Shown: positions 43,868 through 64,000, counted from the first letter of the stretch. The stretch is DNA of 64,000 bases from Novakomyces olei (GCA_016906335.1 JADEYG010000015.1:1240001-1304000); one strand, 5' to 3'. Notes: generated by a model from the letters alone, not told the origin. Numbers and translations are program-made.

Positions 43868-44234
43868 TAACGGCGTCACTAAATTTGTGTAGTAGGTAAA
43901 AGAAGATGTTAAATATACATATGCTTGCTTATAAGGGCAAGGACAAATCTAAAACGAATACAATGTAAGCATCTTGAATATTTGAATTGCGTATAGCAAA
44001 GGCCAATGTCGTACATATATCACAAATTTGACTTACATATACGTCAATCATTCTACTTTCACAATTACAACCTTGCTTTGTGACATATGCTTTCGCAGTG
44101 TACCTGATCCCACGTATATTCTAAATTCAATCTTGCTTTGATTACTCGACTCGACTCGGAATATAGTCAAGCGATACATTAATACAGAAATAAATACCCT
44201 TGAAAAACTAAAAAAAAAACACGATGTTAGCCCG

Positions 44235-45962: not shown

Positions 45963-47016
45963 AGCAGCAGAATTCGAAATAATAATTAGGTTGATAGAAG
46001 GGAAGAAGTAGTGTCTTGAAGACCTTACCTCTCAAGTCATTTTATACATGTATATATATATGTATGAATCATGTATCGAATATCAGCATTCGCTCGCTTA
46101 CAGGCGGGCTTATCACCAAGATCCCACGCTACGTGTGGGACAACCGAATGGAGAAAGAAATAAGCCACAAACCTTACAAATTGATAAGAAATACATACCG
46201 GCATGCATCATATTTCCATTGCAAATTTCATGTATTTTCTATCATGCCCTTGATTCTCGACTCCAGACAGACCCAAATATCGGAATCGTCCGCTTCCATG
46301 CCCTAAATACTGTTCTTTCACGGTTCTGACCAATTAGGATGGTGCATAAACAAAAATGGTTATTGATATGCTCCGCACAAATCTGGACTCTTAGTCCAGA
46401 CTTTCGGTTGAATTTGCATAATACTTATTGTACTATGATTAAAATTGTTGATAAAGTCAGGGCGTATATTTGTTTCATAAATTAACTTGCATACTTCCTT
46501 ATGATATCACAAAGCGCGGAAATTATTGGAATTTTATGTTGCCATTGAGACCATATTCTTATCGGATTGCTGTATATGAGACATTCTTTGAATAAAAATA
46601 ATTTAAAATGCGCTTTTGAGTTTTCGCATTTAATTGACGGCCGCTCGTTTGAAGTACAAGGGACAATATTGAGATATGAATCAATTATTCTCTCACGCTT
46701 TTCATTTCTTTATTATATTTCTAATTTAGATACATCTATTGTGCGTGTTTACCCCTAACCATAGCTATGTTGGATCTCAGTTTTGAGCGCTTGTGAATTT
46801 CTAAAACAACCATTCATACACTCTGATCCACAATTACAACGGATAATAAATTCTATCTGAGTATTCATAGCCAAGCGAGTGAGGTCAATTGTACATAGGA
46901 ATGAAAAGGAACAAGACTATTCGAAATCAAAAACAATTGCATTCTCAATCATCTTCTATTTCGATATCCAAAATCCATATGATCGTGTCGAGGATAAATA
47001 CTTGTGTGACTTAAAG

Positions 47017-48647
47017 CTACACATAATGCTCTGCACGAATCCTATCAATATTACCTGGGATCATTATTGGCAGTGGATTATCCCACCGTGTCCAACTTCT
47101 TTCGCTCCATACTGCTTCGACTGGCTTCTGCAGTGACTTTAGTTCGACCGCATGAAGTTCTGTTTGACGCCATACATTCAAAATATTTAAACCCATCAAT
47201 TTTCGAACCTGATCATCTGTTGCACCACGTTTTAACAAGGCTTCGATTAGTTGCGGATAAAACGAGACATCATCCATTCCATCCACAAGTGACATTGTTC
47301 CATCAAAGTCAGCTCCTTAAGGTTAGCTCTATGCTAAACAACTTCAAAAAATAATCGTCATGCTAATAAACAAATCAAAATCTTTGTAATTAATGCGGAT
47401 AAAATCTAACGGCTACCTTAGCCATCGAACCAAAATCTTACCGATTCCTACATGATCCCACCCCGCTACTTTGGCGATATGAAATATATGATCCAGTGCA
47501 GAATTCATATCAGCCTTTTCAGGGTGGTCAGTATCAATAAACCGTTTGACGAAAAACACCATTGCCACTCCACCTTTGAATTTCAAACGTTGCAAAACAT
47601 CATCAGGAACGTTTCTATAGTTTCTCGCAAGCTCGTAACTGGCAGTATGCGAAAAGATGACAGGCGACGTAGTAATGTCTAGAACCTGCCGCATTGTATT
47701 ATGACTCACATGACTTAAATCCAACATCATTCCTAGGCGATTCATTTCTTTCACTGCTTCCTTACCAAATTCTGTCAGACCGGGGTCTATACCAGTTTCA
47801 GTGACTGTGGAAGCTGCTGTGGCAAACGCATTATCGCAATTATGAGTGAGTGTCACGTAACGTACTCCAAGATCAAAAATCTGTCTAAGGACAGCTAGAG
47901 ACGAACCGACCTGATGCATTCCTTCGGCACCAAGCATTGAAGCAACTTGACCATTTGCAAATGCATTTATAGCGCAAGTGGAGTTTTCGCAATATTGCAG
48001 TTCAGGATATTCAATGAAAAGGCGTTTTGCTACGTCAATTTGTTCCAACGTGTCCCTAACATTGTTCTTCCAATATGTTAGATAGGGCTATTGAAGATCA
48101 TTCTAATTCAATTCATATCAGACTCACGTTAGGTACATCAGGATGTAATGTGTCCGGGCACTTTAAGATATCAGTTAATTGTCAAAAAGGGATATAATGT
48201 AAAGGGAAAATCATAAAACGGAGTAAAGCCATATATAATCCAACCTCCACAAAAACCGACCAGAACTGTCCGCCAATTCCACCCTTTTGCAAACGCTGCA
48301 GATCAGTATGACTCGCAAGTCCTAATCAATCAACTTTCTGCACAAACTTTGTAAATACCATCAATAAAGTTAAATTTCGACTTATCGTAAATACGATTCT
48401 TCAGTTCTAGTCGAAGTAGATATGGCAAATCATTATGGCCATCTATCAATGGCGAACTCGCAAGCAATGCTTTTGCCCGACGTATGGTAGCTTTTGATGT
48501 TCCACTTTTTTCGTACACCGACCACAAAAGGATGCTCATTAAAACGCCAACAGCATATAATAATAGCCGTTTGCGAGTAGTCTGGCGAGGCAAATTCGCA
48601 CTATGCTTCAATACCGTTTCGCTTCTCGAAAAGTTATCTCTTGACAT
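47017..48647 (-). CDS. Membrane dipeptidase (M19, renal dipeptidase/GliJ-like), type II anchor, 5 exons
   Basis: [38 protein letters not shown] and HVGIGADFDG after splicing. Includes a 33-nt microexon 48160-48128. Confidence 0.9.
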
Positions 48648-49944
48648 ATCAATATGTCCGAATCAGAATTCTTTATTCGCATCAGTGCTTGGACTACCTC
48701 TCAGACCTTCTTTGATATTATGATTATTTTTGTATTTTCTTATCTACTTGGCAGCCGCTCTATTACGACTTGGCCGATAATTACGCATTCTTTCACTAAA
48801 ATTATTATTTCTGACTAAATAAAAGCTCCATAAATCTGAGTAAGCGCTGAGGTGTTATCATAGAAAATTGCCGGCGTTTATTCTTGTTGAAGTTCCAGTG
48901 TAATTATAGTTCGATAGATTGCGCGAACGGTTAATATATGTGAATCGCTGGAAACTTCCCATTTAGGAACATGCTCACTTTTATGTTAAATTATTATATG
49001 ACGAAAGGCCTACACATATTTCCAGACCTTCTTTCGCGGTACTTTAAAAAAATATTTAACGAAAACTTTATAGAATAATGTCTGATATAAGAATAATGAT
49101 ATAATAATGTACGGCATTATAATGAATGGGGGGATATTTTAAGTGGGTTAATGTATGGGGATTAATTAAAACAATTAACACTTAAAAAGATGCCCGTCAC
49201 GTGACCAGGTACAATCTCATTAGTTTTCAACAAATTTGTGTAAAATTGGAAAAAATTAAGCAGTGTTTAATTGAAGTTTGATTGATCACATAGTAATATT
49301 GAAATGCGTGAAAAACGTGAGCTGCAGATTGATATTGATTTTGAAAGGAAAAGAACAGCAAATTAAAACTTTATTAAGCCAGATGTATTATTATATATAA
49401 TCATAAACAGCATAAGTGGTAAAACTCCGTCGATCAAACTCCAGATATTTTATTTATAGTTCATCTGACGTTTGCAAATTAGCCCTAGCTATACACTCGA
49501 CATATAAATCCACAAATCTATATTAGGATGAGCTATAAAGATAAATATACGGAAATGAATGAAAATGTGGTAAAGCAACTTACCCTCCATAAGGAAGAAA
49601 CTATTCGAGCACACGCCTTCTAGAACCGATGTAAACTTTTTTTCTGTATCCACGAGCATGAAGTCTTAATCTTTTTATAAGTATTAGAAAAAGTGCTAAC
49701 AAATGCTTACAAGTTAGGGTACATATATCTTATCGGAGTGTGTGTTATGTGGACCATTTGCGCGGGATAATACCGCAATTTGTATGTGACAAAATTAACC
49801 ACTTAGCAATACAGCTATGTATACATTAAACTGATTACATTATAATTTAGATATTTATGAAACACGGTTGTTATAGTTGTCTATTTGTGCGCCACGATTC
49901 TATCCGTTAAAATGCTATTTAAATGCGCACGCTTATGCTAAAAT

Positions 49945-50724
49945 TTATGCTTTTCTCTTCTTTCCATCTTCTCCGTCGCCTCCTGAGCCTTGACTGGGAG
50001 AAAGCTCGAGCTTCGCAATGCTCTCCTTAATGATGCTTCCCATTTCGTCGTATAGCTGTTCTCCTTTTCCCTCAAGATATGTAGAAGGCACGTATAACAC
50101 TTTGTTCTCAAAACGAGAGCCAAATATGGCTTCACGGAGTTTCTCCACACACGGTATAAGCGGCCTGTACCCTCTCTGAAACCTCTCTTCCGTGGCAGAC
50201 CCAAACATTTTAGAATTAAAAATAAGCCCTCCTTTTAAACTCACGAGCTCTCGCATAGACACCGCATTCCATTTGTCAAACTCTGTTACCGTCCAGCCAT
50301 CGCCTCCGGGCTCATAGTGCACGCATGTCCAATAAAGAACCCAGAAAAACGGCTCCAGATCGTGTTGAAAGCTATGATCTTGACCGTCCAGCAATGCGAT
50401 CGACATGAAAGCTTTCGTGCCAGTTTTTGCTTTCGCCCCATACCCTTCTGTTCGATCTGTGCGTATCGCCATATCCAGATCGATGATAAATGCCTCCACC
50501 TCTCCATCTTTTTCGTTCATCATTAGATTCCCTGTCGAAATGTCCCGATGAAGAATCCCATTATCCAGTAATGACTTGTGTCCCCCGATACATTGCAGAA
50601 TTGCTTCAAATAAAGCCTTCGGACTGCTTGCATTCGAAATTCTCTTTCCAAAGTCGCGCAAGACCACGCGACGATGCTCGCGGTTTTCAGTTGTGCTTGC
50701 ATCTGTACTCCTTTCGTTAGTCAT
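49945..50724 (-). pseudogene. FunK1-type fungal protein kinase, C-terminal fragment
   Basis: HRRVVLRDFGK, GILHRDISTGN, IIDLD, TGTKAFMSI and HDLEPFFWV. The N-lobe is absent; upstream lies duplicated DNA from another gene. Confidence 0.75.
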
Positions 50725-50725
50725 C

Positions 50726-51271
50726 TTTCCAAGAAAATATGTTTTACCGCAAATATTGGGCTAGCTTGTTTTGCACCTATATTTGAAGCCATTTCTTGAA
50801 GCGTTTGATATTCATACTTTTTCCCATTTTTCACAATACCGACTTTTTCCACTTCGAATGGCTCACACTGGAACGGATATTGCTGATGCTGCGCAATATA
50901 AGCCATCCAAAATAGATCCATGTCCACTTTCTGGTCCTTTAGGTATTCCAGATACTCTATGTATAGATGATCTTCTTCGGAAGACTCGAGATAAGCTCCG
51001 TTTGCGGAGGCATGTGACTCGGCAAACAACACAACCATAGGCGCATTTAAATGAGCAGCCTTGCTCTCTGCAATTTCATGATACCGTTGTAAAAACCACT
51101 CAAATTCATTTGAAGACTTTTGCTCAAGTTTGATCTGAAACTTTAGGTACAATGCTTGTCCTTTGTAATACCGGCGCACAATAAGTAAGATTGGACCATT
51201 TGAAGACCACACTGATCGCAGTAGTAAAAATTGCAGAAAACAAGAATGCGCATGAATTCCACGATTTGATA
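50726..51271. repeat. 546-bp duplication of 55389-55934 (copy A, gene fragment)
   Basis: Constant offset of 4663. ORF translations are identical on both strands and I saw no mismatch by eye. Confidence 0.92.
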
Positions 51272-51538
51272 TTAATTTTGCATTACTTAGACCAAATGCT
51301 CAAGTTTAGATAAGTTCCGCGCTTATGATTGGCTGACAGGCCTAGGCGGCATATTGGCGGGCCTACGTGGGCTGTAGCCATGATAAAAAATGCAAATAAA
51401 TGTACAAAGATGAAGGAAATCAAATGTTCGATTCTTCAAAATTTTGTCTCAATTTGAACCTGATCCCTAAAAAACTAAACAATACAGCGGCATTTAATTT
51501 TAGCTTTCAGGCATACACTGCTTGCTCCAGCTTCACAA

Positions 51539-52458
51539 ATGGTGATCAAAATTCTATTACTTAATCCGAACAGTTCACGAGTAGTCACTTGCGCTTGTGA
51601 TGAGTTGGTGCGGCCCACTCTTCCTAACGACGTCAAACTAGACTCTTTATCGGCACCTCAGGACAGTGTCCCTGCTATTGAAACATTTAGCGATATCATT
51701 ACCAGTGCATCTGCTACAGCAAAGCTCGCAAAAACAAAACTCGATGAGTATGATGCTTTCCTCGTTTGCGGCCACTGTGATCATCCGCTGATCTACATAC
51801 TTCGTGAAGCCACAAACAAACCGGTTTGTGGAATAATGGAGGCTTCGCTGTATTCTGCTCGGACTCTTGGAACAAAGTTTGGTATTATATCTATTACTGA
51901 GCAAATTGCGGCTGCTCAGCGACAAGGTGTCACTAATTATGGATTGGACAAGTTTTGTGTTGGTGTGAGAAGCACCGGGCTTGGCGTGAAAGATCTGTCT
52001 AATTTACCGTTCGATAAAGTAATAGATTTAATGGCGGTAGCAGGGAACGAACTGGTTTCGTTGGGAGCTGATACCTTAACTCTTGGGTGTGCAGGAATGT
52101 CCGGGATGCAGGACGCAGTAGCAAAAGCTACTGGACCAAGAATCACCGTGATTGATGGGGAAGTAAAAAGAAAGAACCAAAAAAAAAAATAATAATAATA
52201 ATAAAAGAAAACACATTAATTATAGCGCCGATAAACTGTGACATAAAATAATATGTAAAATAATATGAGGAAATAGAAAGTCAAAAGAACATTTCGAACA
52301 AAAAACTAGAATATGTGTTTAAAATCCAATTGAGAAATAAAGCAATTTAAAATTCAGACTAATTAGATAGCGCTGTTTGTGGAGTTCATCATCTAATTGG
52401 ACTCGTCCGAGCAGGTCTCTACACTGCGAAAAGGGGCTCTTATGGTGTTAAGAAGTAG
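51539..52458 (+). CDS. Asp/Glu/hydantoin (allantoin) racemase family, Dcg1-like, 2 exons
   Basis: LLNPNSS, DAFLVCGHCDHP, GIMEAS, LGCAGM and VIDG. Last exon 52371-52458 (AVCGVHHLIGLVRAGLYTAKRG); its donor is non-canonical. Confidence 0.85.
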
Positions 52459-53334
52459 AGTCTGCACACAGCTCGACAATTCTTAAATAGAGAGCTGAAA
52501 AACAATCTTGAGGTTGATGTAATTGAGGACTGAAATTATTTGCATTCGTAACGATAACTGAATAAGCGCAGTTGCCACTTTGCACACAAGTCTTTTCTTA
52601 TCCAGACATTTCCATTTATGCAGAATTCATAAATTATAATGGCTATGGTTTCATTGTTTATTTAAATGTACAAATACAAGAACTGAATTATATGTTTTTG
52701 ATAATGTAATCACATTTGTAGCAAATCTCGATTAGCTAGCTTATTTACAACATTACGGTGGTTTAGAGACAGAACATTTAACCGCTGTCCTACCTTGCAG
52801 ATCAGTGTATGTTTTATTTTACGCAATAATTAAACTCCCAATCAGACAACTATTTTTAGATTAATTGAATGTATTCGATGATTCAAGCCCGCAAGTATGT
52901 CACCGAACTACTACGCAACTTTTGAGGGCAAATTTTTCCCACAAAGACTGTGAAAGCGGCAGCACCAAAGCCTGAATAAGGTTGTAAAAGGTTGTGGCTA
53001 AAGCAACGAGTCACGTTATAACGGCCCGTCAGAAATGGTACAACTGTCAGTTACAAATAATATAATACTTGAATATAATGAACTCAAAAACATGTGAAAT
53101 AACTTAATGATCTTGGATGACATAATAATCTGATTAACCCTATTATCCGAAACAAGCGGCAGCTACATTCGGGTATTCGGAGATAAAAATGACGTGGAAG
53201 GCGTATATATGAAATTAAACGTTATAGCTTGGCTAATCGGATTTAGGTTTCGGAGATCCATTCTGGTGACCTGAGCTTGTATAAAAGAAGTGAAGAGTGA
53301 CGGGCCGCTCCTTTCAAAATCATCATTAAAAGAA

Positions 53335-54342
53335 ATGGCTGGAGATTTGGTACTTATAACAGGAATTTCGGGCTTTGTTGCCCTTCGCTTGGCAGATGAT
53401 CTGTTGTCTCATGGTTTCAGAGTCAGGGGGACAGTAAGATCAGCTGATAAGGCAGAAAAAGTACGCGAATTATTTCCGCGCTACGATTCTTCGCAGCTGG
53501 AATTTGCGATTGTGCCGGACGTTGCCTCGGAAGGCGGATTGGATGAAGCAGTGAAAGGAGTCAAATACGTTTGCCACACAGCGTCGCCTTTCAACTTCTC
53601 CGTAAAGGACAATGAAAAGGATATGCTGATTCCAGCTTACAAGGGAACGACCAATGTTTTAGCAGCGGCGGCCAAGGAGTCTGGCGTCAAACGGTTCATT
53701 GTGCTGAGCAGTTTTGCGTCAATTATTGATCTCTCCAAGGGTAACCGCAAGGGCTATACTTACACGGAAGCCGACTGGAACCCTGCCACTTATGACGAAG
53801 CAAAGGTTTCAGACAACCCTGGATTTGTGTATTGTGCCTCAAAGACAGTAGCAGAGAAGGCAGCTTGGGAATTTATTGAGCAGAAAAAGCCAAACTTCGA
53901 CTTGGTCGCGATTTGCCCATCAATGGTTTTTGGACCACCTCTGGAAGGATCGGCGGAAGACAAGTCTCATCTCAACACATCTACTGCCGCTGAGTGGGCT
54001 TTGTTTAATGGGTCATGTAAAAAGACACCGTCTGTGGCCTTCCCTGTCTGGGTGGATGTCCGTGACGTCGCAAGGGCCCATGTTTCGGCTCTGACAAGTG
54101 AAAAGGCTAGCAATCAGCGATTCTTGCTCATAGCTAATGAGTTCACAAATCAGCAGATTGTGGATTGTGCACGCAAGCATTTTGCGAACGATAGCCGGAT
54201 CAAATTGCCCGAAGAGCGATCAGACGAACCTGACTTGTCCGAATTCTACGATGTTGATGCCTCCAAGGCACCGCGCTTACTCGGGTTTGAGTACACTGGT
54301 CTTGAGCAGAGCGTCATTGACACAATTAAAGTGCTTGCTTAG
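53335..54342 (+). CDS. NAD(P)-dependent extended SDR (Gre2/aldehyde reductase II-like)
   Basis: LITGISGFVA, HTASPF, LSSFAS, YCASK and VDVRDVARAH. ATG at 53335. Confidence 0.9.
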   Translation: MAGDLVLITGISGFVALRLADDLLSHGFRVRGTVRSADKAEKVRELFPRYDSSQLEFAIVPDVASEGGLDEAVKGVKYVCHTASPFNFSVKDNEKDMLIPAYKGTTNVLAAAAKESGVKRFIVLSSFASIIDLSKGNRKGYTYTEADWNPATYDEAKVSDNPGFVYCASKTVAEKAAWEFIEQKKPNFDLVAICPSMVFGPPLEGSAEDKSHLNTSTAAEWALFNGSCKKTPSVAFPVWVDVRDVARAHVSALTSEKASNQRFLLIANEFTNQQIVDCARKHFANDSRIKLPEERSDEPDLSEFYDVDASKAPRLLGFEYTGLEQSVIDTIKVLA

Positions 54343-54476
54343 TAGGACACTACGGTTAGAAATAAAATACAACATGCTGTAGTGTTTTTAGATTTCAGAA
54401 TAAAGATTTTACATAAGAAATTTATTTTTGTTAGCTGGCTTGAATAATACAATTTGGTTCCACTCTGATATACTTT

Positions 54477-54969
54477 TTAAACGGCTCCAGATCCAACGTT
54501 TTTAGCCTCTTGTGCCTTCAATGCAGCCTGGCAAGTCTTTGTGACCTCTAATAAGTACTCTTCGCACAATCGCCGTTTGACCAGCTGTAATGTTACCGGA
54601 CACCCGTCCATAGCCTCGGGGCAATCTGTTATTCGTTAACCCTAAGGTTTGATATCAGTCTTACATTCTTGCCATATCGTGGCTTCCAGATCGTTGCGTC
54701 CGCGATATTCGACGTTTTGGTCCAGAGACCACGAACATGGCACAAAAAAGGCTCAAAGTGGGCGGGCAAGCTCACAGAGCCCGTAAACGAGCAAGCCGAT
54801 CTCCAGAGATACAAATGGAAACGCTAAATAATGAGTCTGTTAGCAGCGAACGTAACTCCTTTCTAGCTGCCATTTCTTTTAAGCCTTAACCTTTCGACAC
54901 TGCGATCGATTTATGGCTTCCGTCCGAAAAGTCAGGGTTCGTCTCTGTCGCATCAGAGTCAGGTGTGAC
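54477..54969 (-). pseudogene. Cryptic three-exon coding segment with one in-frame TGA
   Basis: Exons 54969-54891, 54823-54665, 54625-54477 are phase-compatible; TGA at 54755-54753. Confidence 0.4.
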
Positions 54970-55308
54970 CTATATGTGGGTATAGTTCAAATTTTGGGTT
55001 TTGCTGCAAAATTGAGTATTTGTTGGTAATTTATCTTTTTGTGTGGGCGGTTTTTGTACATTTTAAAATTATACGTATCACTTGCTATACCTAACTCGGC
55101 ATCTAATTACCTTTTTTAATCTCTTGAATTCTTAATCACTAGAGTGCTTGCGTCTGACTCCCAATTTTTTACTCATACCACAGTTACTCTCTCCCGCAAT
55201 GCAGATTCTCACATTTGGATGGATGAATGATAATCCTCGGTCTCAAAGTTGATTTTCTTTACCTATTAATTATGCTGTTTTAACTTGTAGATCAAAAGTA
55301 CTATCAAA

Positions 55309-56748
55309 CTAAACGTCAAAGTGTTGCCTCTCAATCATCATATCATTTGGTCCGAGATTGCTCAAAACATTCATGCATCGACTGTGTGTTTCCAAGAAAA
55401 TATGTTTTACCGCAAATATTGGGCTAGCTTGTTTTGCACCTATATTTGAAGCCATTTCTTGAAGCGTTTGATATTCATACTTTTTCCCATTTTTCACAAT
55501 ACCGACTTTTTCCACTTCGAATGGCTCACACTGGAACGGATATTGCTGATGCTGCGCAATATAAGCCATCCAAAATAGATCCATGTCCACTTTCTGGTCC
55601 TTTAGGTATTCCAGATACTCTATGTATAGATGATCTTCTTCGGAAGACTCGAGATAAGCTCCGTTTGCGGAGGCATGTGACTCGGCAAACAACACAACCA
55701 TAGGCGCATTTAAATGAGCAGCCTTGCTCTCTGCAATTTCATGATACCGTTGTAAAAACCACTCAAATTCATTTGAAGACTTTTGCTCAAGTTTGATCTG
55801 AAACTTTAGGTACAATGCTTGTCCTTTGTAATACCGGCGCACAATAAGTAAGATTGGACCATTTGAAGACCACACTGATCGCAGTAGTAAAAATTGCAGA
55901 AAACAAGAATGCGCATGAATTCCACGATTTGATACCCTTAACGAATCTTTAAGAAGCGAAAAGCCTAAATCTGGCTTCGACGCTGCTTTTTGTTCCATGA
56001 ACGAACAGGACAATTGAGAGACAAAGCTTTGCATATTCTTGAAGATTTTTCGCCAGCGATCTGATCCCAAGTTGTTTTTGCTTTTTGATGCGTTAAACGC
56101 TTTTGCTCTATCCTCACCAGCCAAATGTAGTGAACAATTAATCCTAAATTTTTCGGCTTGTCTTTCGTCGATGACTATAGCTTCGTTTGGCCCCTCCATA
56201 ATGTGTCTCTTGTATTTGGATAAAACAAAGCTGTAGTATAAAAACTTAGCAATCAGCAGTCTGTTGCCACATCCCCAAGTCTTTGAGTTGCATTCATAAT
56301 TTTGTGGCCATTCCAGACATCTCATAAACTCTTGGGGACGCGTTTGATGCTTTCCAAGTCCTAGCTTTTCGGCATTCTTATTCTCGCACCTTAATAAGCT
56401 TGCCAATCTCTCACAGTTTGCCGTCAATTCCTCAAAATCATGTGCTAGGTTTTCAAGCGTCTCTTTCAAGTGATGCATATGCTGCAATATTTCCTGAAGC
56501 ATAAGGGCCCTTAAATGACAAGCGCAGTCTGCAACATGAGGGTCAAAGCTTAGAAAGCCGGGTGAGTTTTCTAAATAATCTTTGTTATTTGTGTATACGC
56601 CATCAGCCAACCCTAAAAACAGCCTCAATGCGTCCCTTCCGTCAAACGCGGCTGCATAGACCATTCGCAAATAATTCACATAATTCTTATTCGCGATCCA
56701 GCTATTTTTATCCGCGGGTAAAATTTCAAAAAATAGGCAAGCCGACAT
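55309..56748 (-). CDS. Orphan 479-aa soluble protein; candidate tRNA-dependent cyclodipeptide synthase (RCDPS-like)
   Basis: The long intact ORF is certain. The function is inferred from its neighbours and from recalled resemblance of FDPHVADCACHLRA, SQLSCSF, AQHQQYP and HIF blocks to AnkA/AvaA-type enzymes (unverified). Confidence 0.5.
   Translation of the reverse strand: MSACLFFEILPADKNSWIANKNYVNYLRMVYAAAFDGRDALRLFLGLADGVYTNNKDYLENSPGFLSFDPHVADCACHLRALMLQEILQHMHHLKETLENLAHDFEELTANCERLASLLRCENKNAEKLGLGKHQTRPQEFMRCLEWPQNYECNSKTWGCGNRLLIAKFLYYSFVLSKYKRHIMEGPNEAIVIDERQAEKFRINCSLHLAGEDRAKAFNASKSKNNLGSDRWRKIFKNMQSFVSQLSCSFMEQKAASKPDLGFSLLKDSLRVSNRGIHAHSCFLQFLLLRSVWSSNGPILLIVRRYYKGQALYLKFQIKLEQKSSNEFEWFLQRYHEIAESKAAHLNAPMVVLFAESHASANGAYLESSEEDHLYIEYLEYLKDQKVDMDLFWMAYIAQHQQYPFQCEPFEVEKVGIVKNGKKYEYQTLQEMASNIGAKQASPIFAVKHIFLETHSRCMNVLSNLGPNDMMIERQHFDV
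55389..55934. repeat. Source copy (B) of the 546-bp duplication
   Basis: Lies inside the intact 479-aa ORF and matches 50726-51271. Confidence 0.92.
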
Positions 56749-57503
56749 GTCAAGCTTTATTATCGATCGCAGTTTTTCCTTTTAATATATCTTCTCTTTT
56801 CGCCTTCTTTTTAGCTTTTCGGTTTGATTCCTTTGGTGAATCCTCATGTTCATGTTTGCAAAGCCGATATTTATATTGATAAATTCTAATTGAACGAAAA
56901 CTCCGATTTTCTCCACTCTGATTCAGACTATCCCACGTAACGGATGCACTGATAAAGTACGCCATTCCTGCACAGATGTCGGATTCGCATCGCACTATTG
57001 TCCAATAGTTTTCGAATGTACGTAGCCAATAAATAAAAAAACAATAAGCACAGATTCACACGCATCATTGTTCTATTTTCGATGCTTTTTGCTTCACGAT
57101 CATGTCGAGTAGGCCACGGAACTCCTACGCTTACCCTATTTGAAATCATTGTTCCGGCATAGAAGTTTCCAAGTTACGTAATTAGCGACCAGCCATTTCG
57201 GTGAATATGCCAAATTTGGCAATATAATTCGGAGAATTTTTGCGTATTTCACGGGAACGTGATCAATTGCAAGGGTCATCATACCTTGCAGATCATAAGT
57301 GCGCCATTAGTGGGGAACAACCAGTTTCTCGTGTCGCTAAAGAATGCCAAATGTTTGATACAACGATGTGCGTGGGATGAATATAAATATTAGCCATTTC
57401 ATGATTGCTACATAAAGAGGAGCATTTTGATTGTCAACCTTTTATTAAAGAAATTTCAAAATATTTTCAATTATCAAATCTTTAAAACAAGCGCACAAAC
57501 AAG

Positions 57504-59015
57504 ATGGCACAAGCATACATTATTTTATACGTCCTTGGATTCGTCTTGACGCTGAGATTCTTGTACCGTCAGTATATTCATGCGTATGGCATGCTAGGCA
57601 TTAATCAAGCCAGTATTGTCGACGCAAAAGGAAGACCGATACCGCACTCTCCCAAAGATACACGATTTACCCGCTTTTCTCACGCAAAAGAAATCTCAGT
57701 CGGTAATCGTGAAAAATACGGAGACATTTATACAGTCAAGAAAGGCCCATACAAAGAGCTAGTGATAACAAATCCGGAAGCTTTGCGAGCCCATTATGAG
57801 GGCGACGCTATGGCTCACACAAAGCTTGAATCGCTCGGGTTTGGAGCCTTTCTAGGTTCGCTTCTAGGCGAGTGTGTGGGCTTAAAGTATGGAGATGACT
57901 GGCGGCGTATCCGTCGTGCTGTCGATCCCTACTTCACGCACAAGGCGGCAATGCTTTCGCTTCCAGCTACGTCTCAATATTTGTTTGAGTGGGCTGGACA
58001 CGATCTGCCACGCATGAAAGAGGCAAATCACACTGCCCCTGGTCAGTTCAGTATCCGAGCCATGGACGCAGTTACAATAGTCCCATTCAAAGCTACAGCT
58101 AAGCTCATGTACGGTGACAAGACTATGACTGACGAATTTTTCCGGCAGCTGTGGTCCATAATTCCTTTGCACTCGGACCTGATTAATTTTGCTTTTCTCT
58201 CGTCTCTCGGTCGCTGGAACCTGTTTCAGTACACGTGTCTGCCAAAAGCTAACCAGCTGCGAAAATTCCATAGAACGTTTCGTGCCCTCAACATGTGGAT
58301 GGTGCGCGACGCGCAGGCAAACAATGAAAACAGTATTGTATTTGAAATGTACGAGCAGGTGAAGAGTGGAAAACTGACGTTTGACGAATGGATCCAGACA
58401 ATTGACGAGATTCTGTTTGCTAATATTGATATCACTGCGGCGGCAATGGCCTGGATGATTATAATTATTGCCCGTGAACCAGGCTACCAGGACAAGTTGC
58501 TTCGCGAGTTCCAGGACAGAATTAGTGACAGCTCGGATGAGAATGAGACGGCACTGTACATCAAGGACACACAAACAGAGCTCCATCGAGCAATGACAGA
58601 GGCAATCAGAGTCCAGCCTGTTGTGTGGTATGGATTTCCTGAGCTCACACAGGCGACAAAAGCCATCCAGGGCTATGTCGTTCCCTCTCGCACTCCGGCA
58701 ACTGTTGACGTGTACCAGCTAAACACGCAGTCTCCCATATGGAATCCAGCAGATAAGCCTAAAGGCTACGGCAATGTTTTTGATCCAGACCGGTTTATTT
58801 CGCTAAACGTTACCGATTATGCCTGGTCCTTTTTCCGCTTTGGTAATGGACCTAGAAAGTGCCTCGGACGTAACTTTGCTGAATCCCTCCTCAAGGCTGA
58901 AATATTCCACGTGTTTTCCCGCTATTCTGTACAGTTGCTAGACAAGGTTGAAATACGTCGCGATAAATTCACGGCGCAGCCTGAATGCCGTCTACTCTTT
59001 ACACAGCGTGAGTAG
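57504..59015 (+). CDS. Cytochrome P450, GliC-like, intronless
   Basis: LLGECVGL, atypical I-helix QTIDEILFANIDIT, EAIR, FDPDRF and FGNGPRKCLG. Confidence 0.88.
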   Translation: MAQAYIILYVLGFVLTLRFLYRQYIHAYGMLGINQASIVDAKGRPIPHSPKDTRFTRFSHAKEISVGNREKYGDIYTVKKGPYKELVITNPEALRAHYEGDAMAHTKLESLGFGAFLGSLLGECVGLKYGDDWRRIRRAVDPYFTHKAAMLSLPATSQYLFEWAGHDLPRMKEANHTAPGQFSIRAMDAVTIVPFKATAKLMYGDKTMTDEFFRQLWSIIPLHSDLINFAFLSSLGRWNLFQYTCLPKANQLRKFHRTFRALNMWMVRDAQANNENSIVFEMYEQVKSGKLTFDEWIQTIDEILFANIDITAAAMAWMIIIIAREPGYQDKLLREFQDRISDSSDENETALYIKDTQTELHRAMTEAIRVQPVVWYGFPELTQATKAIQGYVVPSRTPATVDVYQLNTQSPIWNPADKPKGYGNVFDPDRFISLNVTDYAWSFFRFGNGPRKCLGRNFAESLLKAEIFHVFSRYSVQLLDKVEIRRDKFTAQPECRLLFTQRE

Positions 59016-59242
59016 ATCGGTTCGTTATTGGGTCGGTTCAATATTAGGTCCGGCTAGGAGGAGGTATTTGGCAAGCGCATTGATTTGCTTTGATTTGAAT
59101 GATCGAATAAATTGACTTTTTAAAAGGCCTTTTTTAATATAGTATTAAATAATAGCAAATACTATGTAATAATCATGATCACTGCTAGAGTAATAAACGC
59201 TGGTTTTCAAAACCCCATTTGTGCAAGCAACTCTGCCAGTCT

Positions 59243-60640
59243 TCAAACCTTGGCCGACAATGAGGGCCCCACCTTGATAATTCTAGCCAGTGTCATAAAG
59301 GCAGAGCCAGCCAGAATAACGACGCCAGTGAATATTATCATGCGGGAAAAATCTGTTCCTCTTGTAAGAGCTCCAGCAATAGGAGAGCCGGTGAGGGCAG
59401 CAATGCTGATAATTTGGAAAGAGATGCCAATCCTCTGGCCCAGCACTTGGATAGAGGGACTCAGTGACGCAATCACTCCAGTCAAAAGGCCGACATAGGC
59501 ACCTGAAAATATGCCAAACAGCAAACAGAAAACAATGTAGCCGCCTCTGTTGGTTGCACCAAACCAGGCAAATACAATAATACCCGTAATGACTACGCAC
59601 GGGATCATCAAGTTTAGTGCTCCGCGTCTGTCGGCAATCATGTTTGGCACAGTCCGGCCGATAATGGAGCCGGCATTCGTTATCGGGAGGGAATAAAAAG
59701 TAAGAGTCTGTGATATGCCATTGGCTAAGCCAAAAGATTCAAGGAAAAAGAAGGGCGTAAAAAGTCCCCACATGGTGAGAAAAGCACCACCGACAAAAAC
59801 CATAAACGGAAGATCTTTGAAAGCACTCGTATCGTACAATAAACTGGCTGGCCGAGGAGGGATACGGGTTTTTTGCATAAGGCATGTTCCAGCGAGACAC
59901 GCAAGAGAGATGAAAGCCACAACTCGCACGGTCCAGCCAAAGCCGATTCGTGGAAACAAACGATTCAATATGATTGGGAAAACGACGCCGCCAAGAGAGG
60001 AACCGGTAGCGACAATACCAAAGCCAATGTAGCGTCTAAGCTTCCACCAGTGGCCTACAACTGCCATAGCCGGGAGAAAAATACAGCCCATACCAATGCC
60101 CATACAAAGAGACTGAGCGAGGAAGAACTGGTAGTAGCTCTTGCACAGAGAAAGCATAAAAATCCCAACTAGAAATAGTAAACTGCCTCCCGTAATCAAG
60201 TAACGAAAGTAGCCCATGTCAAACAGGTGGCCCGAGAAAATACCACAAAAGAACATTATAAAAACTTGCACGGATCCGATCCATGAAATATTGCTCGGCG
60301 TTTGATGACTCAGCTGATGGCCCTCATAATAAGTCTGAAACACGCCAAAACAATTGACTATACCAAACGTACAAAAGAGGCCGAGCCATCCACCGATCAC
60401 TACGAGCCATGCCTCAAGACCACCGTCGGGAAATGCAAAGTCTGGAGGTCCATTGCCTGCACTTTTGACTTGCGACTCAAATGACTGATCTTTTCCTTTT
60501 CTCTCGGGCGCAGAACCTTCATATCCTTTCTCTTCGTCATTCAAGGAATTCGCGGACACCCGTTGAGTTTCGTTGAGCTGCTGCTGTCCATCATCATGCG
60601 GCCAGCTGTCTGGCAATTGCTGTGCTGTACTGTTTGCCAT
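59243..60640 (-). CDS. MFS transporter, monocarboxylate porter (Mch-like) family
   Basis: PDGGLEAWLVV, FGVFQTYY, ISWIGSVQ, GSSLGGV and ADRRG, with about 12 TMs. Confidence 0.92.
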   Translation of the reverse strand: MANSTAQQLPDSWPHDDGQQQLNETQRVSANSLNDEEKGYEGSAPERKGKDQSFESQVKSAGNGPPDFAFPDGGLEAWLVVIGGWLGLFCTFGIVNCFGVFQTYYEGHQLSHQTPSNISWIGSVQVFIMFFCGIFSGHLFDMGYFRYLITGGSLLFLVGIFMLSLCKSYYQFFLAQSLCMGIGMGCIFLPAMAVVGHWWKLRRYIGFGIVATGSSLGGVVFPIILNRLFPRIGFGWTVRVVAFISLACLAGTCLMQKTRIPPRPASLLYDTSAFKDLPFMVFVGGAFLTMWGLFTPFFFLESFGLANGISQTLTFYSLPITNAGSIIGRTVPNMIADRRGALNLMIPCVVITGIIVFAWFGATNRGGYIVFCLLFGIFSGAYVGLLTGVIASLSPSIQVLGQRIGISFQIISIAALTGSPIAGALTRGTDFSRMIIFTGVVILAGSAFMTLARIIKVGPSLSAKV

Positions 60641-61300
60641 AGCTCGTTATGTTTGGAGCACTTTGAAAAAGCACATTTTGTACAGAGCGAAAAGGCCTCA
60701 TCTTTATAGATCTTCCTGTTTATCTGTCAACACTCTTTTCCTTGCTCTTGCGACTCGAAAGTGTCGATCCAAAAGAAGATTGCACTGCGCATGCTCTCCT
60801 TGTCGGAGGTACACCTTGTTCCAGTTCGGAAATAGGTCCAAAAACGTGATAACTCCGTGTTTCGGAGAAATGCCTGAAAAGCTGGTTAAGCATGGAACAA
60901 TAAACTACAGAATATTACTTTCTAATGAATCCAAGTCATTGGATTACTTAAAGTGTAATGCTCCATTTTAGGCTAAATTCCTATCAGCTGGACGGTTTAT
61001 CAAAAAAAAAAGGCAGCTGCTCATCAAGAATAACTAGACTTTAATTAGAGTTTGAAAAGAAGTAAATGTAGAGGGGTGCAGAGTTGTTTGCCAATAGTGT
61101 GAGGGCACATACGACGATGTCAGCAACTCAGCAACAAGTACTTGGAACGGTTCGGACTATACAATGCTGAATAAACAAGGCACAATAAGTTCTTACGTCT
61201 ACACTTTGAACGATAAGCAGGAAGCACGATACTCGAAAAGGGTCTTACGGTCCAAAACAAGTGCAACGAGTATGTGTTCAAATTATAATTGAATTCGTCT

Positions 61301-63091
61301 TTAAAACACAATAGCAGCCCAGTGCATTTGAAAAGAATCTAGCTGAGCAAGAAACGCTTCTAAATCCGGATGCATCTGTCCAGAGCTAGGGCTTCCGGCG
61401 GATGCAATTTGCTTCGTTTTTACTCTGCGAATCCGCATACAATCATGTGCCCAGCGCTGGCGCTCAGCGAGAAAGACACCAAGAGCGCCGAGAGTTTCAA
61501 TAGCGAGATCAATCTCCAGGCCCTCATCGTCAGCTGGCATCTCTGGCGCCTGCAATGATTTGTAGCTAAAGAGAGCCAAAAGCACCATACAAGCAGCCCA
61601 TACAGTCATGAGAGCGGATCGAACTGGATAGGCAAAATGCCAATCCAGCTTTTCACGGTGCTCAAGGGCAAAAGAACGGCCGTATCGCTGCCACAGAGTA
61701 CGGATCGATCGGCGAGCAAGGCGGTTTGCTATTTGCACCAGCTGTGGGGTCATTTGCGTACCAGGATTAGCCAAAATATTACGGAAAAAGAGCAGCTTTG
61801 AGCGGACAAGCATAAGCTGCAATTCGTCGTAATGAAATGGCTTCATCTCAACCACATTGTTCTCAAAGCTAAAGTCAAAAATCATACGCTCGAGCCTCGC
61901 CACATCAATGGTTAAATCCAGCTCAGGTCGGCCTAATTTTGCAACATCAGACACTAATTTACAGATGCTTATTTTGCCCTGAAGGTAAGCAAACTCATAG
62001 TCCTCACGACCACCCAGACTCGGATGGGGCGCGCTTATTTCTTCGGCCATAAGAACAAGTGGCCGGCCGGAAAAGGCCTTGGTCATGCACGCAGAGGTCC
62101 ATGAATGCCAAAAATGCCGGCAAATACGCTCGTACATTACTTGATCGTCAATCTGCAGAAAAGTGCCGATTTTATGATAGCCAAGAGAAATTGCCATACT
62201 CATAGACATGAACGAGTACCCTAGTTGAGCTTCAATTGAACAAAATACATTCATAAAATTAGCCAGTAACGTAATGGCACACAGACCATTCAGAGAAGGT
62301 TTCTCCAACGTGTCGGCCACAAGTGATTTTGCTTGAATAAACAGGCTTTGCGCAAATGATCTGCCATTCCGCGTTCCTGACGAGTGCTGATCGATATTAT
62401 TTTCCCACCCGTTTTCCATTAGCGAAGCAAGTATCAGCGCCAGTATAACAAGCAACTTGTTATCTTGGCCAGTTAAACTGCACGAAAAAGCTGTAGACCA
62501 CATATCACGGTACACAACCTCAAATTCGCTTTTACTGATGCCGATAAATGGCCTGTTAGCATCGCGAAATAAAACTTGTACCAATTGATCGCACGTCTGT
62601 TTTGCTGGAAGCCCTCCACCATAGTAGTCCGGTGATTGCCTGCGTAAACGCGAAATCTGTTCATTAGTTTGTCCAAATATATGTTCAAAGCCGACTAAAC
62701 TTGGCTGAACATTCGAGTCTGAGTTCGAAACTCGCATTTCGTAACTGCCATTTCCACGCGCGTCCCGAACACGCTCGGTATCGAAGTGTAATCTTTGATT
62801 GGAACCAGAAGCCTTGCTACTGTTGCTGCTGCTAGTGGGAATACCTGCACTGTAGCTGCTTTCAGGAGAAGTTGTCTGCGGCTCTAAATTTCTGTTAAAA
62901 AGGATATGTTGTTCATAATCACGAGTATGCAGATTTTTGCGCCGCTTGTCTCGCGAATAATTGCATTCAGCAGGAGGTCTCGATTCAGAGCAGCTACGAC
63001 ACACAGGCAGGGCACGATTACACTGGATCTTTTTCGCTCGGCAGCGCTCACACGCTCTTTCAGAATAATGGTCCTGGCCTGGATCCATCAT
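61301..63091 (-). CDS. Zn(II)2Cys6 transcription factor
   Basis: CERCRAKKIQCNRALPVCRSC..C binuclear cluster plus a fungal TF middle region (SLGYHK..RHFW). First ATG at 63091. Confidence 0.92.
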   Translation of the reverse strand: MMDPGQDHYSERACERCRAKKIQCNRALPVCRSCSESRPPAECNYSRDKRRKNLHTRDYEQHILFNRNLEPQTTSPESSYSAGIPTSSSNSSKASGSNQRLHFDTERVRDARGNGSYEMRVSNSDSNVQPSLVGFEHIFGQTNEQISRLRRQSPDYYGGGLPAKQTCDQLVQVLFRDANRPFIGISKSEFEVVYRDMWSTAFSCSLTGQDNKLLVILALILASLMENGWENNIDQHSSGTRNGRSFAQSLFIQAKSLVADTLEKPSLNGLCAITLLANFMNVFCSIEAQLGYSFMSMSMAISLGYHKIGTFLQIDDQVMYERICRHFWHSWTSACMTKAFSGRPLVLMAEEISAPHPSLGGREDYEFAYLQGKISICKLVSDVAKLGRPELDLTIDVARLERMIFDFSFENNVVEMKPFHYDELQLMLVRSKLLFFRNILANPGTQMTPQLVQIANRLARRSIRTLWQRYGRSFALEHREKLDWHFAYPVRSALMTVWAACMVLLALFSYKSLQAPEMPADDEGLEIDLAIETLGALGVFLAERQRWAHDCMRIRRVKTKQIASAGSPSSGQMHPDLEAFLAQLDSFQMHWAAIVF

Positions 63092-63285
63092 CACCCATCG
63101 AAACTCTTTCAAATAAATCTAACATAAGCCCTGCTGCTGCATTCGAGCCTGTTGCAATTGGGCTCTCCCAAAACTATTGCAGCTCTTCCTTCATAGTACT
63201 AAGCTGACAATCAAGACTTTTTTTGCCCAGCTTTTTCATGGACCATTGTCGCAGGTTTCTCGATTATTTACGTATGTGTAGTAAA

Positions 63286-64000
63286 TGTTGTTGAAATATG
63301 GACTCTGTCAACTTATAAATTTACTGTTCTAAATACTCTCATTCCTTCAGCCAAAATTGAAACTATTACGATCTGTCTTTACCCCCGTATTGCTTATCTA
63401 CTTTCAGGATATGAATATATATATCTATGGATGAAACCCTTTGACCTTGGGGGAATTTCACTGTCTTCTACTGTAGCAAGATTATTAATATTAACCGTTC
63501 GAACAACCTATCCAACAATAATTTACATCAATAATTACAACAGGTTATGAGCCTGGAAGGTTAAATATTACATCTACTCAGTGATTAGAAGTGAAGTTAA
63601 GTTTCTCAATATTAAAAATTATTAAAAATCAAAAAACATGGCTCAACCAAATGTCACCCCCGTACTTGCCAATAGTTTGAGAAATAATACAATAATACTT
63701 GGAATAATTCCAATGTTGAAATCGTGGCACGAGTATAGTGAATGGAAATTGAAGATTACAAACAGATTGGAATTGCATGGGTTCTCCGCATTATTGGAGA
63801 GCGATCAAGACTCCAGTATTCCGAAAGTCACCGTTCTCGTAATAACAGCCGAACTAATCGAGGCAATAAACGAAAATCTACTTGGACCCCGCATTGAAGG
63901 AATAAAATCGCCGAAAGCACTCTTTAAATTACTCGATTTGGAATTTGGCAAAAAGAAAAATTAAGTGATTGAAGCTGTCGCCACTAAATTCATGGCTCCC
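63286..64000 (+). mobile_element. Ty1/copia (Ty5-like) LTR retrotransposon, 5' end (runs off window)
   Basis: 257-bp LTR candidate TGTTGT..ACAACA (63286-63542), immediately followed by GGTTATGAGCC (63543-63553; half-tRNAiMet type PBS) and a gag-like ORF. Confidence 0.85.
63638..64000 (+). pseudogene. Copia-type gag with in-frame stop
   Basis: YSEWKLKITNRLELHG..SPKALFKLLDLEFG resembles a copia gag N-terminus. TAA at 63962-63964, then the same frame continues (VIEAVATKFMAP). Confidence 0.65.

What the first reader, a model, noticed from the sequence alone, without database searches (positions are those of the whole stretch)
53335..63091. Candidate NRPS-independent cyclodipeptide (diketopiperazine) gene cluster
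Seen: a 479-aa orphan gene divergent from a P450 (about 750 bp apart), then an MFS transporter and a Zn2Cys6 factor, flanked by a reductase, with no NRPS, PKS or terpene synthase in the window. Known: the P450's LLGxCVGL and (L/I)DExL(F/Y)AN(L/I)D(V/I)T motifs match the GliC-type P450s that oxidise diketopiperazines, and fungal RCDPS clusters (ank, ava) pair a domain-less core enzyme with P450s. Inference: core synthase, tailoring P450, exporter and dedicated regulator making an unknown oxidised cyclodipeptide in a yeast-like lineage.
Basis: partly seen in the sequence, partly recalled or inferred. Interest (0 to 1): 0.88.

Follow-up and report, generated by a model that had tools for sequence, protein, structure and literature searches.

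The report
Divergent pulcherrimin-type (PUL) gene cluster
The four genes are a distant relative of the known yeast PUL cluster, which makes the iron-binding cyclic dipeptide pulcherriminic acid without an NRPS, so this is a new member of a known kind of cluster.

Summary
The 479-aa "orphan" is not an orphan. A full HMMER scan found 51 relatives. One is annotated "putative cyclodipeptide synthase PUL1" of Kluyveromyces marxianus. The divergent P450 is 35-41% identical to Kluyveromyces PUL2. In separate trees, both proteins are sister to the budding-yeast PUL1 and PUL2 clades.

The PUL1-like/P450 pair also lies together in Basidiobolus, Xylographa and K. marxianus, and in 3 of 20 metagenome loci. 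With the MFS transporter and the Zn2Cys6 factor, the gene classes and order match the published PUL1-4 cluster. Whether those two are PUL3 and PUL4 orthologues could not be tested.

The RCDPS and GliC comparisons are not supported as family assignments. The reductase sits in duplicated DNA and is probably not part of the cluster.

Two extra results:
- A 546-bp exact copy of the PUL1-like 3' part lies 4.7 kb away, beside a kinase fragment.
- A confident AlphaFold model (pLDDT 85.8) has only weak structural matches, but the ones covering its core are consistently OTU/otubain cysteine deubiquitinases. A conserved D-x-x-C and a conserved His could form a thioester active site.

The parts
55309..56748 (-). 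PUL1-family gene (the 'orphan'), 479 aa, single exon. Putative cyclodipeptide-forming enzyme.
   Evidence: 51 HMMER relatives, including K. marxianus 'putative cyclodipeptide synthase PUL1' (BLASTP 25% over 319 aa, E 3e-17). Colinear with the family from M1 to the C-terminus and keeps all nearly invariant residues. AlphaFold pLDDT 85.8, pTM 0.90.
56749..57503 (.). 755-bp divergent intergenic region between the PUL1-like gene and the P450. Presumed shared promoter.
   Evidence: Coordinates. No CGG-type paired sites, and no 10-mer or longer shared with the MFS promoter; two 10-mers shared with the TF upstream region. The shared-promoter role is inferred only.
57504..59015 (+). PUL2-like cytochrome P450, 503 aa.
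   Evidence: PF00067. 35% identical over 507 aa to K. dobzhanskii P0005, E 3e-120. 40% to 'Pul2 [K. marxianus]'. Sister to the Kluyveromyces-type PUL2 clade, SH-aLRT 99.
59243..60640 (-). MFS transporter, 465 aa, monocarboxylate-transporter-like. Occupies the PUL3 position.
   Evidence: PF07690. 917 relatives at E<=1e-20. The best named ones are MCT/MCH-type at 38-49% identity, and none of the 120 listed is named PUL3. An MFS of the same family follows P450 and PUL1-like in locus L003.
61301..63091 (-). Zn2Cys6 transcription factor, 596 aa. Occupies the PUL4 position.
   Evidence: PF00172 at residues 12-51. The nearest Atlas clusters carry Zn_clus plus Fungal_trans.
53335..54342 (+). NAD(P)-dependent reductase (epimerase/3-beta-HSD type). 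A flanking gene, probably not part of the cluster.
   Evidence: Pfam. Lies between the two repeat copies, in a stretch where other contigs with a few differences also map. No homologue in the 20 related loci.
55389..55934 (-). Repeat copy B, inside the intact PUL1-like gene (residues 272-453).
   Evidence: 100% identical over 546 bp to 50726-51271. The 546-bp unitig has depth 2434.7, against 1163-1176 for the flanks in run X1.
50726..51271 (-). Repeat copy A. A fragment of the PUL1-like gene with no start, with stops upstream, and out of frame with the next ORF.
49945..50724 (-). Fragment of a fungal-type protein kinase (C-lobe only) abutting copy A.
   Evidence: PF17667 profile positions 256-387 of 387, E 2.4e-48.

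Best explanation
This is a divergent member of the fungal PUL-type cluster.

Proposed pathway:
1. The 479-aa protein belongs to the PUL1 family and makes a cyclodipeptide, most likely cyclo(Leu-Leu), without an NRPS.
2. The divergently transcribed P450 belongs to the PUL2 (CYP5251-like) lineage. It oxidises the diketopiperazine ring to a pulcherriminic-acid-type iron chelator.
3. The MFS protein moves the compound or its iron complex across the membrane.
4. The Zn2Cys6 factor switches the genes on.

Shown here: homology of the two enzymes to PUL1 and PUL2, their congruent tree positions, and the recurrence of the pair in distant fungi.

Inferred: the substrate amino acids, the exact product, the roles of the transporter and regulator, and co-regulation.

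Proposed chemistry for the first step (inferred): the conserved Asp74-x-x-Cys77 at the start of a helix, together with His449 in a C-terminal strand, forms a papain/OTU-like active site. This site would carry the first aminoacyl group as a thioester before peptide bond formation and ring closure.
For: PUL1 side:
- One search gave 51 relatives (18 at E<=1e-10).
- One search shows that one of them, P0038, is annotated PUL1 of K. marxianus.
- One search gave BLASTP E 3e-17.
- In one search the protein is sister (SH-aLRT 100) to a 5-row clade that contains PUL1. That tree has 48 rows; 4 hits under 300 aa were left out.

P450 side:
- Searches show that the best named relatives are Kluyveromyces PUL2-type. 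They share LLGEC[VL]G and IDEILFANI[DE][IV]T.
- In one search it is sister (SH-aLRT 99) to the 6-row Kluyveromyces clade (21 rows).

Co-occurrence of the pair:
- Adjacent locus tags in Basidiobolus ranarum (K7432_004550/004551) and Xylographa soralifera (MMC17_004606/004607).
- Metagenome loci L001 (divergent, about 670 bp apart), L003 (P450, PUL1-like, then MFS) and L004.

Published gene classes and order:
- PUL1-4 are a synthase, a P450, a transporter and a regulator (PMC12342472, PMC6851878 and PMC12715866, passages read).
- Pul3 has an MFS domain (PMC7409158, passage read).
- One M. pulcherrima strain has pul3 between pul2 and pul4, as here (PMC12122572, passage read).

Intactness and active site:
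- All nearly invariant family residues are kept.
- The haem and ExxR motifs are present.
- Cys77 starts helix 77-89 and His449 lies in strand 446-454.
- DxxCx[LYFM][RQH] occurs in 37 of 52 family sequences.
Against: - Identity is low: about 25% to PUL1 and 35-41% to PUL2. That is at or below the 40% line used for CYP families (PMC6723986), so substrate and product cannot be read from sequence.
- The MFS is MCT-like, and none of its 120 best relatives is named PUL3 or comes from a named budding yeast. It may not be a PUL3 orthologue.
- The regulator is a generic zinc-cluster protein.
- No shared promoter motif was found.
- 17 of 20 metagenome loci with a family member show no related P450. Many of those contigs are short, and 14 belong to a different clade.
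Confidence: 0.7

Rival explanations
1. The enzymology is the same, but the product differs. The PUL1-like enzyme joins amino acids other than two leucines, and the P450 performs a different oxidation. The cluster would then make an oxidised cyclodipeptide that is not pulcherriminic acid.
For: Both proteins sit on long branches outside the sampled yeast clade (end branches 1.61 and 0.87). Other members of the family sit with different tailoring genes; for example, L004 has an O-methyltransferase, a P450 and an FAD-binding oxidase.
Against: The nearest relatives of both enzymes are the pulcherrimin enzymes. The four-gene make-up matches PUL.
Confidence: 0.3
2. Only the PUL1-like/P450 pair is a functional unit. 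The MFS transporter and the zinc-cluster factor are chance neighbours.
For: Only the pair recurs across taxa. MCT-type MFS genes and Zn2Cys6 factors are very common in fungi (917 relatives at E<=1e-20). No shared promoter motif was found.
Against: L003 also has an MFS of the same family directly after the PUL1-like gene. The published PUL cluster has the same four classes. The four genes lie on one 7413-bp single-copy contig between repeated DNA.
Confidence: 0.2
3. The core enzyme is an arginine-containing cyclodipeptide synthase (RCDPS) of the AnkA/AvaA type.
For: Like RCDPS enzymes it has no recognised domain, is fungal and sits in a cluster. A catalytic cysteine is reported for AvaA (PMC11610942).
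Against: DDXXE is absent from the protein and is not a family motif (3 of 52). The conserved Cys is near residue 70 across the family, not near 193. None of the 30 relatives looked up has an RCDPS name. No RCDPS sequence could be fetched, and Yee et al. 2023 is not held, so remote homology is not excluded.
Confidence: 0.05
4. The 479-aa ORF is a remnant, namely the N-terminal part of the broken fungal kinase gene whose C-lobe lies beside the repeat copy.
For: An exact copy of its 3' 546 bp abuts a kinase fragment.
Against: The ORF matches the PUL1 family end to end, including about 26 residues after the repeat. It folds confidently. It has no match to the kinase profile. Copy A is out of frame with the kinase ORF and has stops upstream.
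Confidence: 0.02

Closest known systems
Budding-yeast PUL cluster (PUL1-PUL4; Kluyveromyces lactis, Metschnikowia pulcherrima, Candida auris), which makes and takes up pulcherriminic acid/pulcherrimin
   Same: A PUL1-family enzyme and a PUL2-type P450 lie side by side, followed by an MFS transporter and a transcription factor. The order PUL1-PUL2-transporter-regulator is as in M. pulcherrima strain 277 (PMC12122572). Both enzymes are sister to the yeast clades.
   Different: Much more divergent: about 25% identity to PUL1 and 35-41% to PUL2, against 31% and 50% between K. lactis and M. pulcherrima (PMC6851878). The transporter is MCT-like with no PUL3-named relative among the 120 best. Some neighbouring genes appear to have introns. 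Part of the PUL1-like gene is duplicated nearby.
Bacterial pulcherrimin operon yvmC-cypX (tRNA-dependent cyclodipeptide synthase plus CYP134A1)
   Same: The same two-step logic: a cyclodipeptide-forming enzyme plus a P450, with an MFS exporter and a regulator nearby (PMC11610984, passages read).
   Different: No sequence relationship is reported between Pul1 and YvmC (PMC11610984, PMC12715866). Here there is no Pfam match at all, and no aminoacyl-tRNA-synthetase-like catalytic-domain fold among the structural matches; the few aaRS rows aligned only to the helical hairpin.
Fungal RCDPS clusters (ank, ava; Yee et al. 2023, known here only through the commentary PMC11610942)
   Same: A domain-less fungal core enzyme makes a cyclodipeptide, and tailoring enzymes sit in the same cluster.
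   Different: The DDXXE motif is absent, and no relative carries an RCDPS name. Family membership is not supported, and remote homology is untested.
OTU/otubain cysteine deubiquitinases (papain-like fold)
   Same: These are the only solved structures whose alignment spans the core of the model (residues about 59-460). There are 4 OTU entries among the 50 rows of the wide search and 6 among the 50 of the second look, including 4 of the top 5. Asp sits three residues before a Cys at a helix start, and a His sits in a late strand. The OTU signature itself is recalled, not fetched.

Membership tests
PUL cluster (PUL1-PUL4) | A PUL1 homologue | tested here: met
   HMMER E 6.4e-11 to the protein annotated PUL1 of K. 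marxianus. BLASTP E 3e-17. Sister to the clade that holds it, SH-aLRT 100.
PUL cluster (PUL1-PUL4) | A PUL2 (CYP5251) P450 next to PUL1 | tested here: met
   Divergent neighbour 755 bp away. 35-41% identity to Kluyveromyces PUL2-type proteins and sister to them, SH-aLRT 99. Identity is at or below the 40% CYP-family line, so the formal CYP5251 name is open.
PUL cluster (PUL1-PUL4) | PUL3 transporter orthologue | not testable with these tools
   An MFS protein is present in the right place, and Pul3 is reported to have an MFS domain (PMC7409158). No PUL3 sequence could be fetched, and none of the 120 best relatives is named PUL3.
PUL cluster (PUL1-PUL4) | PUL4 regulator orthologue | not testable with these tools
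   A Zn2Cys6 factor is present. No PUL4 sequence was available. That PUL4 is a zinc-cluster protein is recalled.
PUL cluster (PUL1-PUL4) | [quoted passage not shown] | not testable with these tools
   Needs expression and chemistry.
Fungal RCDPS (AnkA/AvaA) | Catalytic DDXXE motif (with C193, Y392 and Y515 of AvaA) | tested here: not met
   There is no DD..E in the protein. It occurs in 3 of 52 family sequences at unconserved sites. The motif is taken from PMC11610942.
Fungal RCDPS (AnkA/AvaA) | Sequence homology to AnkA/AvaA | not testable with these tools
   No RCDPS sequence could be obtained. 0 of the 30 relatives looked up bear such a name.
Bacterial CDPS (YvmC/AlbC type) | Sequence or fold of the class-I aminoacyl-tRNA-synthetase-like CDPS family | tested here: inconclusive
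   No Pfam family at E<=0.01, and no CDPS-named family among the weak matches shown (3 for the protein, first 25 of 26 for the 49 relatives). No CDPS structure is listed in the fold searches.
OTU/otubain papain-like cysteine enzymes | OTU fold | tested here: inconclusive
OTU/otubain papain-like cysteine enzymes | Catalytic Cys at a helix N-terminus with Asp at -3, and a His in a C-terminal strand | tested here: met
   D74, C77 and H449 are conserved (C77 and H449 in at least 90% of 22 sequences; the motif in 37 of 52). C77 opens helix 77-89 and H449 lies in strand 446-454. That they superpose on the OTU catalytic residues is inferred from alignment ranges and recalled residue numbers. It was not measured.
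OTU/otubain papain-like cysteine enzymes | Match to the Pfam OTU or otubain profiles | tested here: not met
   The protein itself has no match. PF10275 matches 1 of 49 relatives at E 0.0015.
GliC-type epipolythiodioxopiperazine P450s | Closest relationship to GliC | not tested
   No GliC sequence was available. None of the 20 relatives at E<=1e-10 is named GliC.

The most novel reading that the evidence does not exclude
The PUL1 family, including this protein, may be a cyclodipeptide synthase built on an OTU/papain-like cysteine-enzyme scaffold. Asp74-x-x-Cys77 and His449 would carry an aminoacyl thioester. The family has no assigned fold or mechanism in the papers read here. If this is right, fungi would have turned a deubiquitinase-type fold into a peptide-bond-forming enzyme. 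This locus would be the deepest branch of the yeast-type PUL1/PUL2 pair among the sequences sampled here, inside a family that reaches chytrids, Basidiobolus, Agaricomycetes and Pezizomycotina.
Probability: 0.5. Interest if true: 0.7.

Novelty: new member of a known kind. Interest (0 to 1): 0.45.

Why it matters
Pulcherriminic acid is the iron-sequestering compound behind the antifungal action of Metschnikowia biocontrol yeasts.

Reviews up to late 2025 still call the first enzyme, Pul1, mechanistically unknown and do not say whether it uses free or tRNA-bound leucine (PMC12342472, PMC12715866).

A very divergent but intact PUL1/PUL2 pair helps separate conserved from variable residues. It points to a short list of candidate catalytic residues: D69, H71, D74, C77, K178, K180, H400, Y403, H449 and E453. 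Ordinary mutagenesis can test these.

The survey also shows that the PUL1 family is spread across several fungal phyla, with a PUL2-like P450 beside it in some members (Basidiobolus, Xylographa, three metagenome loci). NRPS-independent cyclodipeptide clusters of this type are therefore probably missed by standard cluster finders.

Tried and rejected
- **Word-indexed protein search with the orphan.** 0 of 5308 candidates scored E<=1e-3. The full HMMER scan was needed.
- **Whole-genome search.** No genome is held for this window.
- **Expression.** No RNA holder was listed among the 4 runs found, so nothing can be said on expression.
- **Shared promoter motifs.** There are no CGG/CCG paired sites in the 755-bp divergent promoter. 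No 10-mer or longer is shared between the divergent promoter and the MFS promoter, or by all three promoter regions; only two 10-mers are shared between it and the TF upstream region.
- **Sequence profile against PDB chains.** Only unrelated weak hits, with no OTU and no CDPS.
- **Foldseek against PDB.** Nothing at E<=1e-3 for either model.
- **ESM Atlas with the orphan.** No usable hit. With the regulator, only generic zinc-cluster families.
- **Kinase remnant idea.** Rejected.
- **Second P450 at 41995-43356 as a PUL2 paralogue.** Rejected: 24% identity over 196 aa.
- **Earlier notes of this scan.** Nothing found.
- **Papers.** Krause et al. 2018 and Yee et al. 2023 are not held. What they say about relatives outside yeasts, about the RCDPS fold or about any PUL1-RCDPS link could not be checked. 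Supplements were not opened.
- **Literature searches in the held library.** No paper holds both 'PUL1' and 'RCDPS'. The 5 papers with 'cyclodipeptide' and 'OTU' all use OTU as a taxonomic unit. One broad six-term search listed nothing relevant among its 15 rows. One oenology review holds Pul1, pulcherriminic, cysteine and tRNA together (listing only).
- **Taxon of the window.** Not established. A search for yeast-type intron signals found 0 TACTAAC and was not taken further.
Full report
**Observation**

Reading the window with the standard code gives five uninterrupted ORFs at the stated places:

| Gene | Coordinates | Size | Pfam |
|---|---|---|---|
| Reductase | 53335-54342 (+) | 335 aa | Epimerase / 3-beta-HSD |
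| "Orphan" | 55309-56748 (-) | 479 aa | none |
| P450 | 57504-59015 (+) | 503 aa | p450 |
| MFS transporter | 59243-60640 (-) | 465 aa | MFS_1 |
| Zinc-cluster factor | 61301-63091 (-) | 596 aa | Zn_clus |

- The 479-aa ORF and the P450 are divergent, 755 bp apart.
- All 17 ORFs of at least 150 aa in the first 50 kb, and those of the last 14 kb, were scanned. None is an NRPS, PKS or terpene synthase.

**The 479-aa protein is not an orphan**

- The word-indexed search found nothing (0 of 5308 candidates).
- A full HMMER scan of 1.84 billion representatives found 51 relatives at E<=1e-3. Of these, 18 are at E<=1e-10 and none is at E<=1e-30.
- I looked up 30 of the 51. One is annotated [quoted passage not shown] (P0038, a partial protein of 335 aa). 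All the others are hypothetical or unnamed.
- The named relatives come from Pezizomycotina (Penicillium, Talaromyces, Coccidioides, Aspergillus, Xylographa, Candelina, Macrophomina, Staphylotrichum and others) and Agaricomycetes (Dendrothele, Leucogyrophana, Botryobasidium). A chytrid (Geranomyces), Basidiobolus and Calcarisporiella also appear.
- BLASTP against P0038 gives 25% identity over 319 residues, E 3e-17.
- In a 22-sequence alignment the protein is colinear with the family from its first residue to about 26 residues past the last conserved block. It keeps every nearly invariant position: D69, H71, C77, M83, L176, K178, K180, Q240, S247, S273, W293, H400, Y403, F405, H449 and E453.

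**The P450**

- Its best relatives (20 at E<=1e-10 among 7580 candidates) are an unnamed group and K. dobzhanskii at 35-38% identity. "Pul2 [K. marxianus]" follows at 40% over its partial length.
- Next come P450s of Ustilago, Xylographa, Basidiobolus and others.
- PUL2 is the reference member of family CYP5251 (PMC6723986, passages read).

**Trees and co-occurrence**

- In a quick maximum-likelihood tree of 21 P450 rows, the window's protein is sister to the 6-row Kluyveromyces-type clade (SH-aLRT 99).
- In a tree of 48 PUL1-family rows, it is sister to a 5-row clade that contains K. marxianus PUL1 (SH-aLRT 100). Four hits under 300 aa were left out (P0040, P0049, P0064, P0069).
- Both proteins are on long branches and the window's row has an odd composition, so the placement is indicative rather than final. 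The two trees do agree with each other.

The two families are neighbours elsewhere:
- Locus tags are consecutive in Basidiobolus ranarum (K7432_004550 and 004551) and Xylographa soralifera (MMC17_004606 and 004607).
- The two K. marxianus proteins list the same 9966-bp contig length. P0004 and P0021 both list 6505 bp.
- A scan of metagenome contigs returned 20 loci with a family member. A related P450 lies in 3 of them:
  - L001: divergent, about 670 bp apart, and yeast-like.
  - L003: P450, PUL1-like gene, then an MFS of the same family as the window's.
  - L004: an O-methyltransferase and an FAD-binding oxidase lie nearby.
- The other 17 loci show no related P450. Three are very short. Fourteen belong to a separate clade from one group of samples, and its neighbours look ordinary in the two loci scanned (L012, L018).

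**Comparison with the known system**

- The published PUL cluster of budding yeasts has four genes. PUL1 is assumed to cyclise two leucines. PUL2 is the P450 that oxidises cyclo(Leu-Leu) to pulcherriminic acid. PUL3 is a transporter and PUL4 a regulator (PMC12342472, PMC6851878 and PMC12715866, passages read).
- Pul3 is reported to carry an MFS domain (PMC7409158).
- The order pul1-pul2-pul3-pul4 occurs in one M. pulcherrima strain (PMC12122572).
- Pul1 evolves faster than Pul2 (PMC12342472), which fits the 25% against 35-41% seen here.
- The window therefore holds a divergent PUL-type cluster.

What I could not test is whether the MFS and the regulator are orthologues of PUL3 and PUL4:
- No PUL3 or PUL4 sequence could be fetched.
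- The MFS is monocarboxylate-transporter-like. Its 120 best relatives of 917 are mostly basidiomycete and filamentous ascomycete proteins, and none is named PUL3.
- The regulator looks like any zinc-cluster factor.

- The RCDPS motif DDXXE (PMC11610942, whole text read) is absent from the protein and is not a family feature (3 of 52). The conserved cysteine lies near residue 70 rather than 193.
- The original RCDPS paper is not held, so a remote link remains open.
- GliC could not be compared.
- No held paper contains both "PUL1" and "RCDPS".

**Fold and mechanism**

- With a 49-sequence alignment, AlphaFold gives a confident model: pLDDT 85.8, pTM 0.90. A model of residues 56-479 gives 84.0 and 0.86.
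- The only matches that span the core are OTU-family deubiquitinases:
  - Also ceOTUB1, 7bu0_A and a viral OTU.
- They make up 4 of the 50 rows of the wide search over 48,161 chains, and 4 of the top 5 in the second look at the shorter model.
- One of 49 relatives has a weak Pfam otubain match (E 0.0015). That is the best of all the weak Pfam hits.
- Cys77 opens helix 77-89 with Asp74 three residues before it. His449 lies in strand 446-454.
- From recall, OTU enzymes have D-G-x-C at a helix start and a late catalytic His.
- The ends of three alignments are consistent with His449 falling on His265 of OTUB1, His224 of OTUB2 and His292 of OTUD2, if the last strand aligns without gaps. Those residue numbers are recalled and the superposition was not measured.
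- I rate an OTU/papain-like active site as about even odds. If it is right, the first step would run through an aminoacyl thioester.

**Surroundings**

- The last 546 bp of the conserved part of the gene (55389-55934) is repeated exactly at 50726-51271.
- In the run that probably gave the assembly, the 546-bp unitig has twice the depth of its single-copy flanks: 2434.7 against 1163-1176. The duplication is therefore real there.
- Copy A has no start and has stops upstream. It abuts, out of frame, a C-lobe fragment of a fungal-type kinase. It is a gene fragment, and the intact gene is the one in the cluster.
- The stretch between the copies carries a racemase and the reductase, and contigs with a few differences also map there. 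I therefore do not count the reductase as part of the cluster.
- The four cluster genes lie on one 7413-bp single-copy contig, 55905-63317. Repeated DNA follows from about 63.3 kb.
- A second study's run holds the same sequence at about 5x.

**Verdict**

- The finding is real and the functional idea is right, but this is a new and very divergent member of a known cluster type.
- The most interesting residue of the analysis is the possible OTU-like active site of the PUL1 family.

Noticed in passing
window 50726-51271 and 55389-55934: A 546-bp direct repeat, 100% identical, with copies 4663 bp apart. One copy lies inside the intact PUL1-like gene. The other is a gene fragment fused out of frame to a fungal-kinase C-lobe fragment (49945-50724). 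The unitig depth is double that of the flanks.
   Followed up: partly
window about 49200-55400: The assembly graph of run X1 is fragmented here. Contigs differing at a few positions, and summed depths of 1.2-4.5 times the single-copy level, indicate that other copies of this block may exist elsewhere in the genome. The block holds the kinase fragment, an Asp/Glu/hydantoin racemase (51539-52192) and the reductase.
   Followed up: no
window about 63290-64000: High-copy DNA starts just after the zinc-cluster gene: summed depth is 6800-7300 against 1163, with loose ends at 63288 and 63393. The ORF at 63638-63964 has no Pfam match. It may be a transposable element.
   Followed up: no
window 37095-47937: A run of amino-acid-related genes lies upstream. 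They are a class-III aminotransferase (37095-38513), a second and unrelated P450 (41995-43356), an amino-acid permease (44235-45962) and an M19 membrane dipeptidase fragment (47413-47937). Together with the racemase they may form a separate metabolic cluster.
   Followed up: partly
L004:3488-14695: On a metagenome contig, a PUL1-family gene sits near an O-methyltransferase, a P450 and an FAD-binding oxidase. This looks like a different diketopiperazine cluster built on the same core enzyme.
   Followed up: partly
L007-L020: A separate clade of the PUL1 family, related to Agaricomycete proteins, has no related P450 within up to 10 kb; in the two loci scanned (L012, L018) the neighbours are ordinary (trehalose-phosphate synthase, F-box, Myb, kinase, laccase). 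Its role may differ.
   Followed up: partly
whole window: The yeast branch-point word TACTAAC does not occur on either strand: 0, against 11.1 expected from simple shuffles. All the splice-signal words counted were below the shuffle means, so the control is crude.
   Followed up: no
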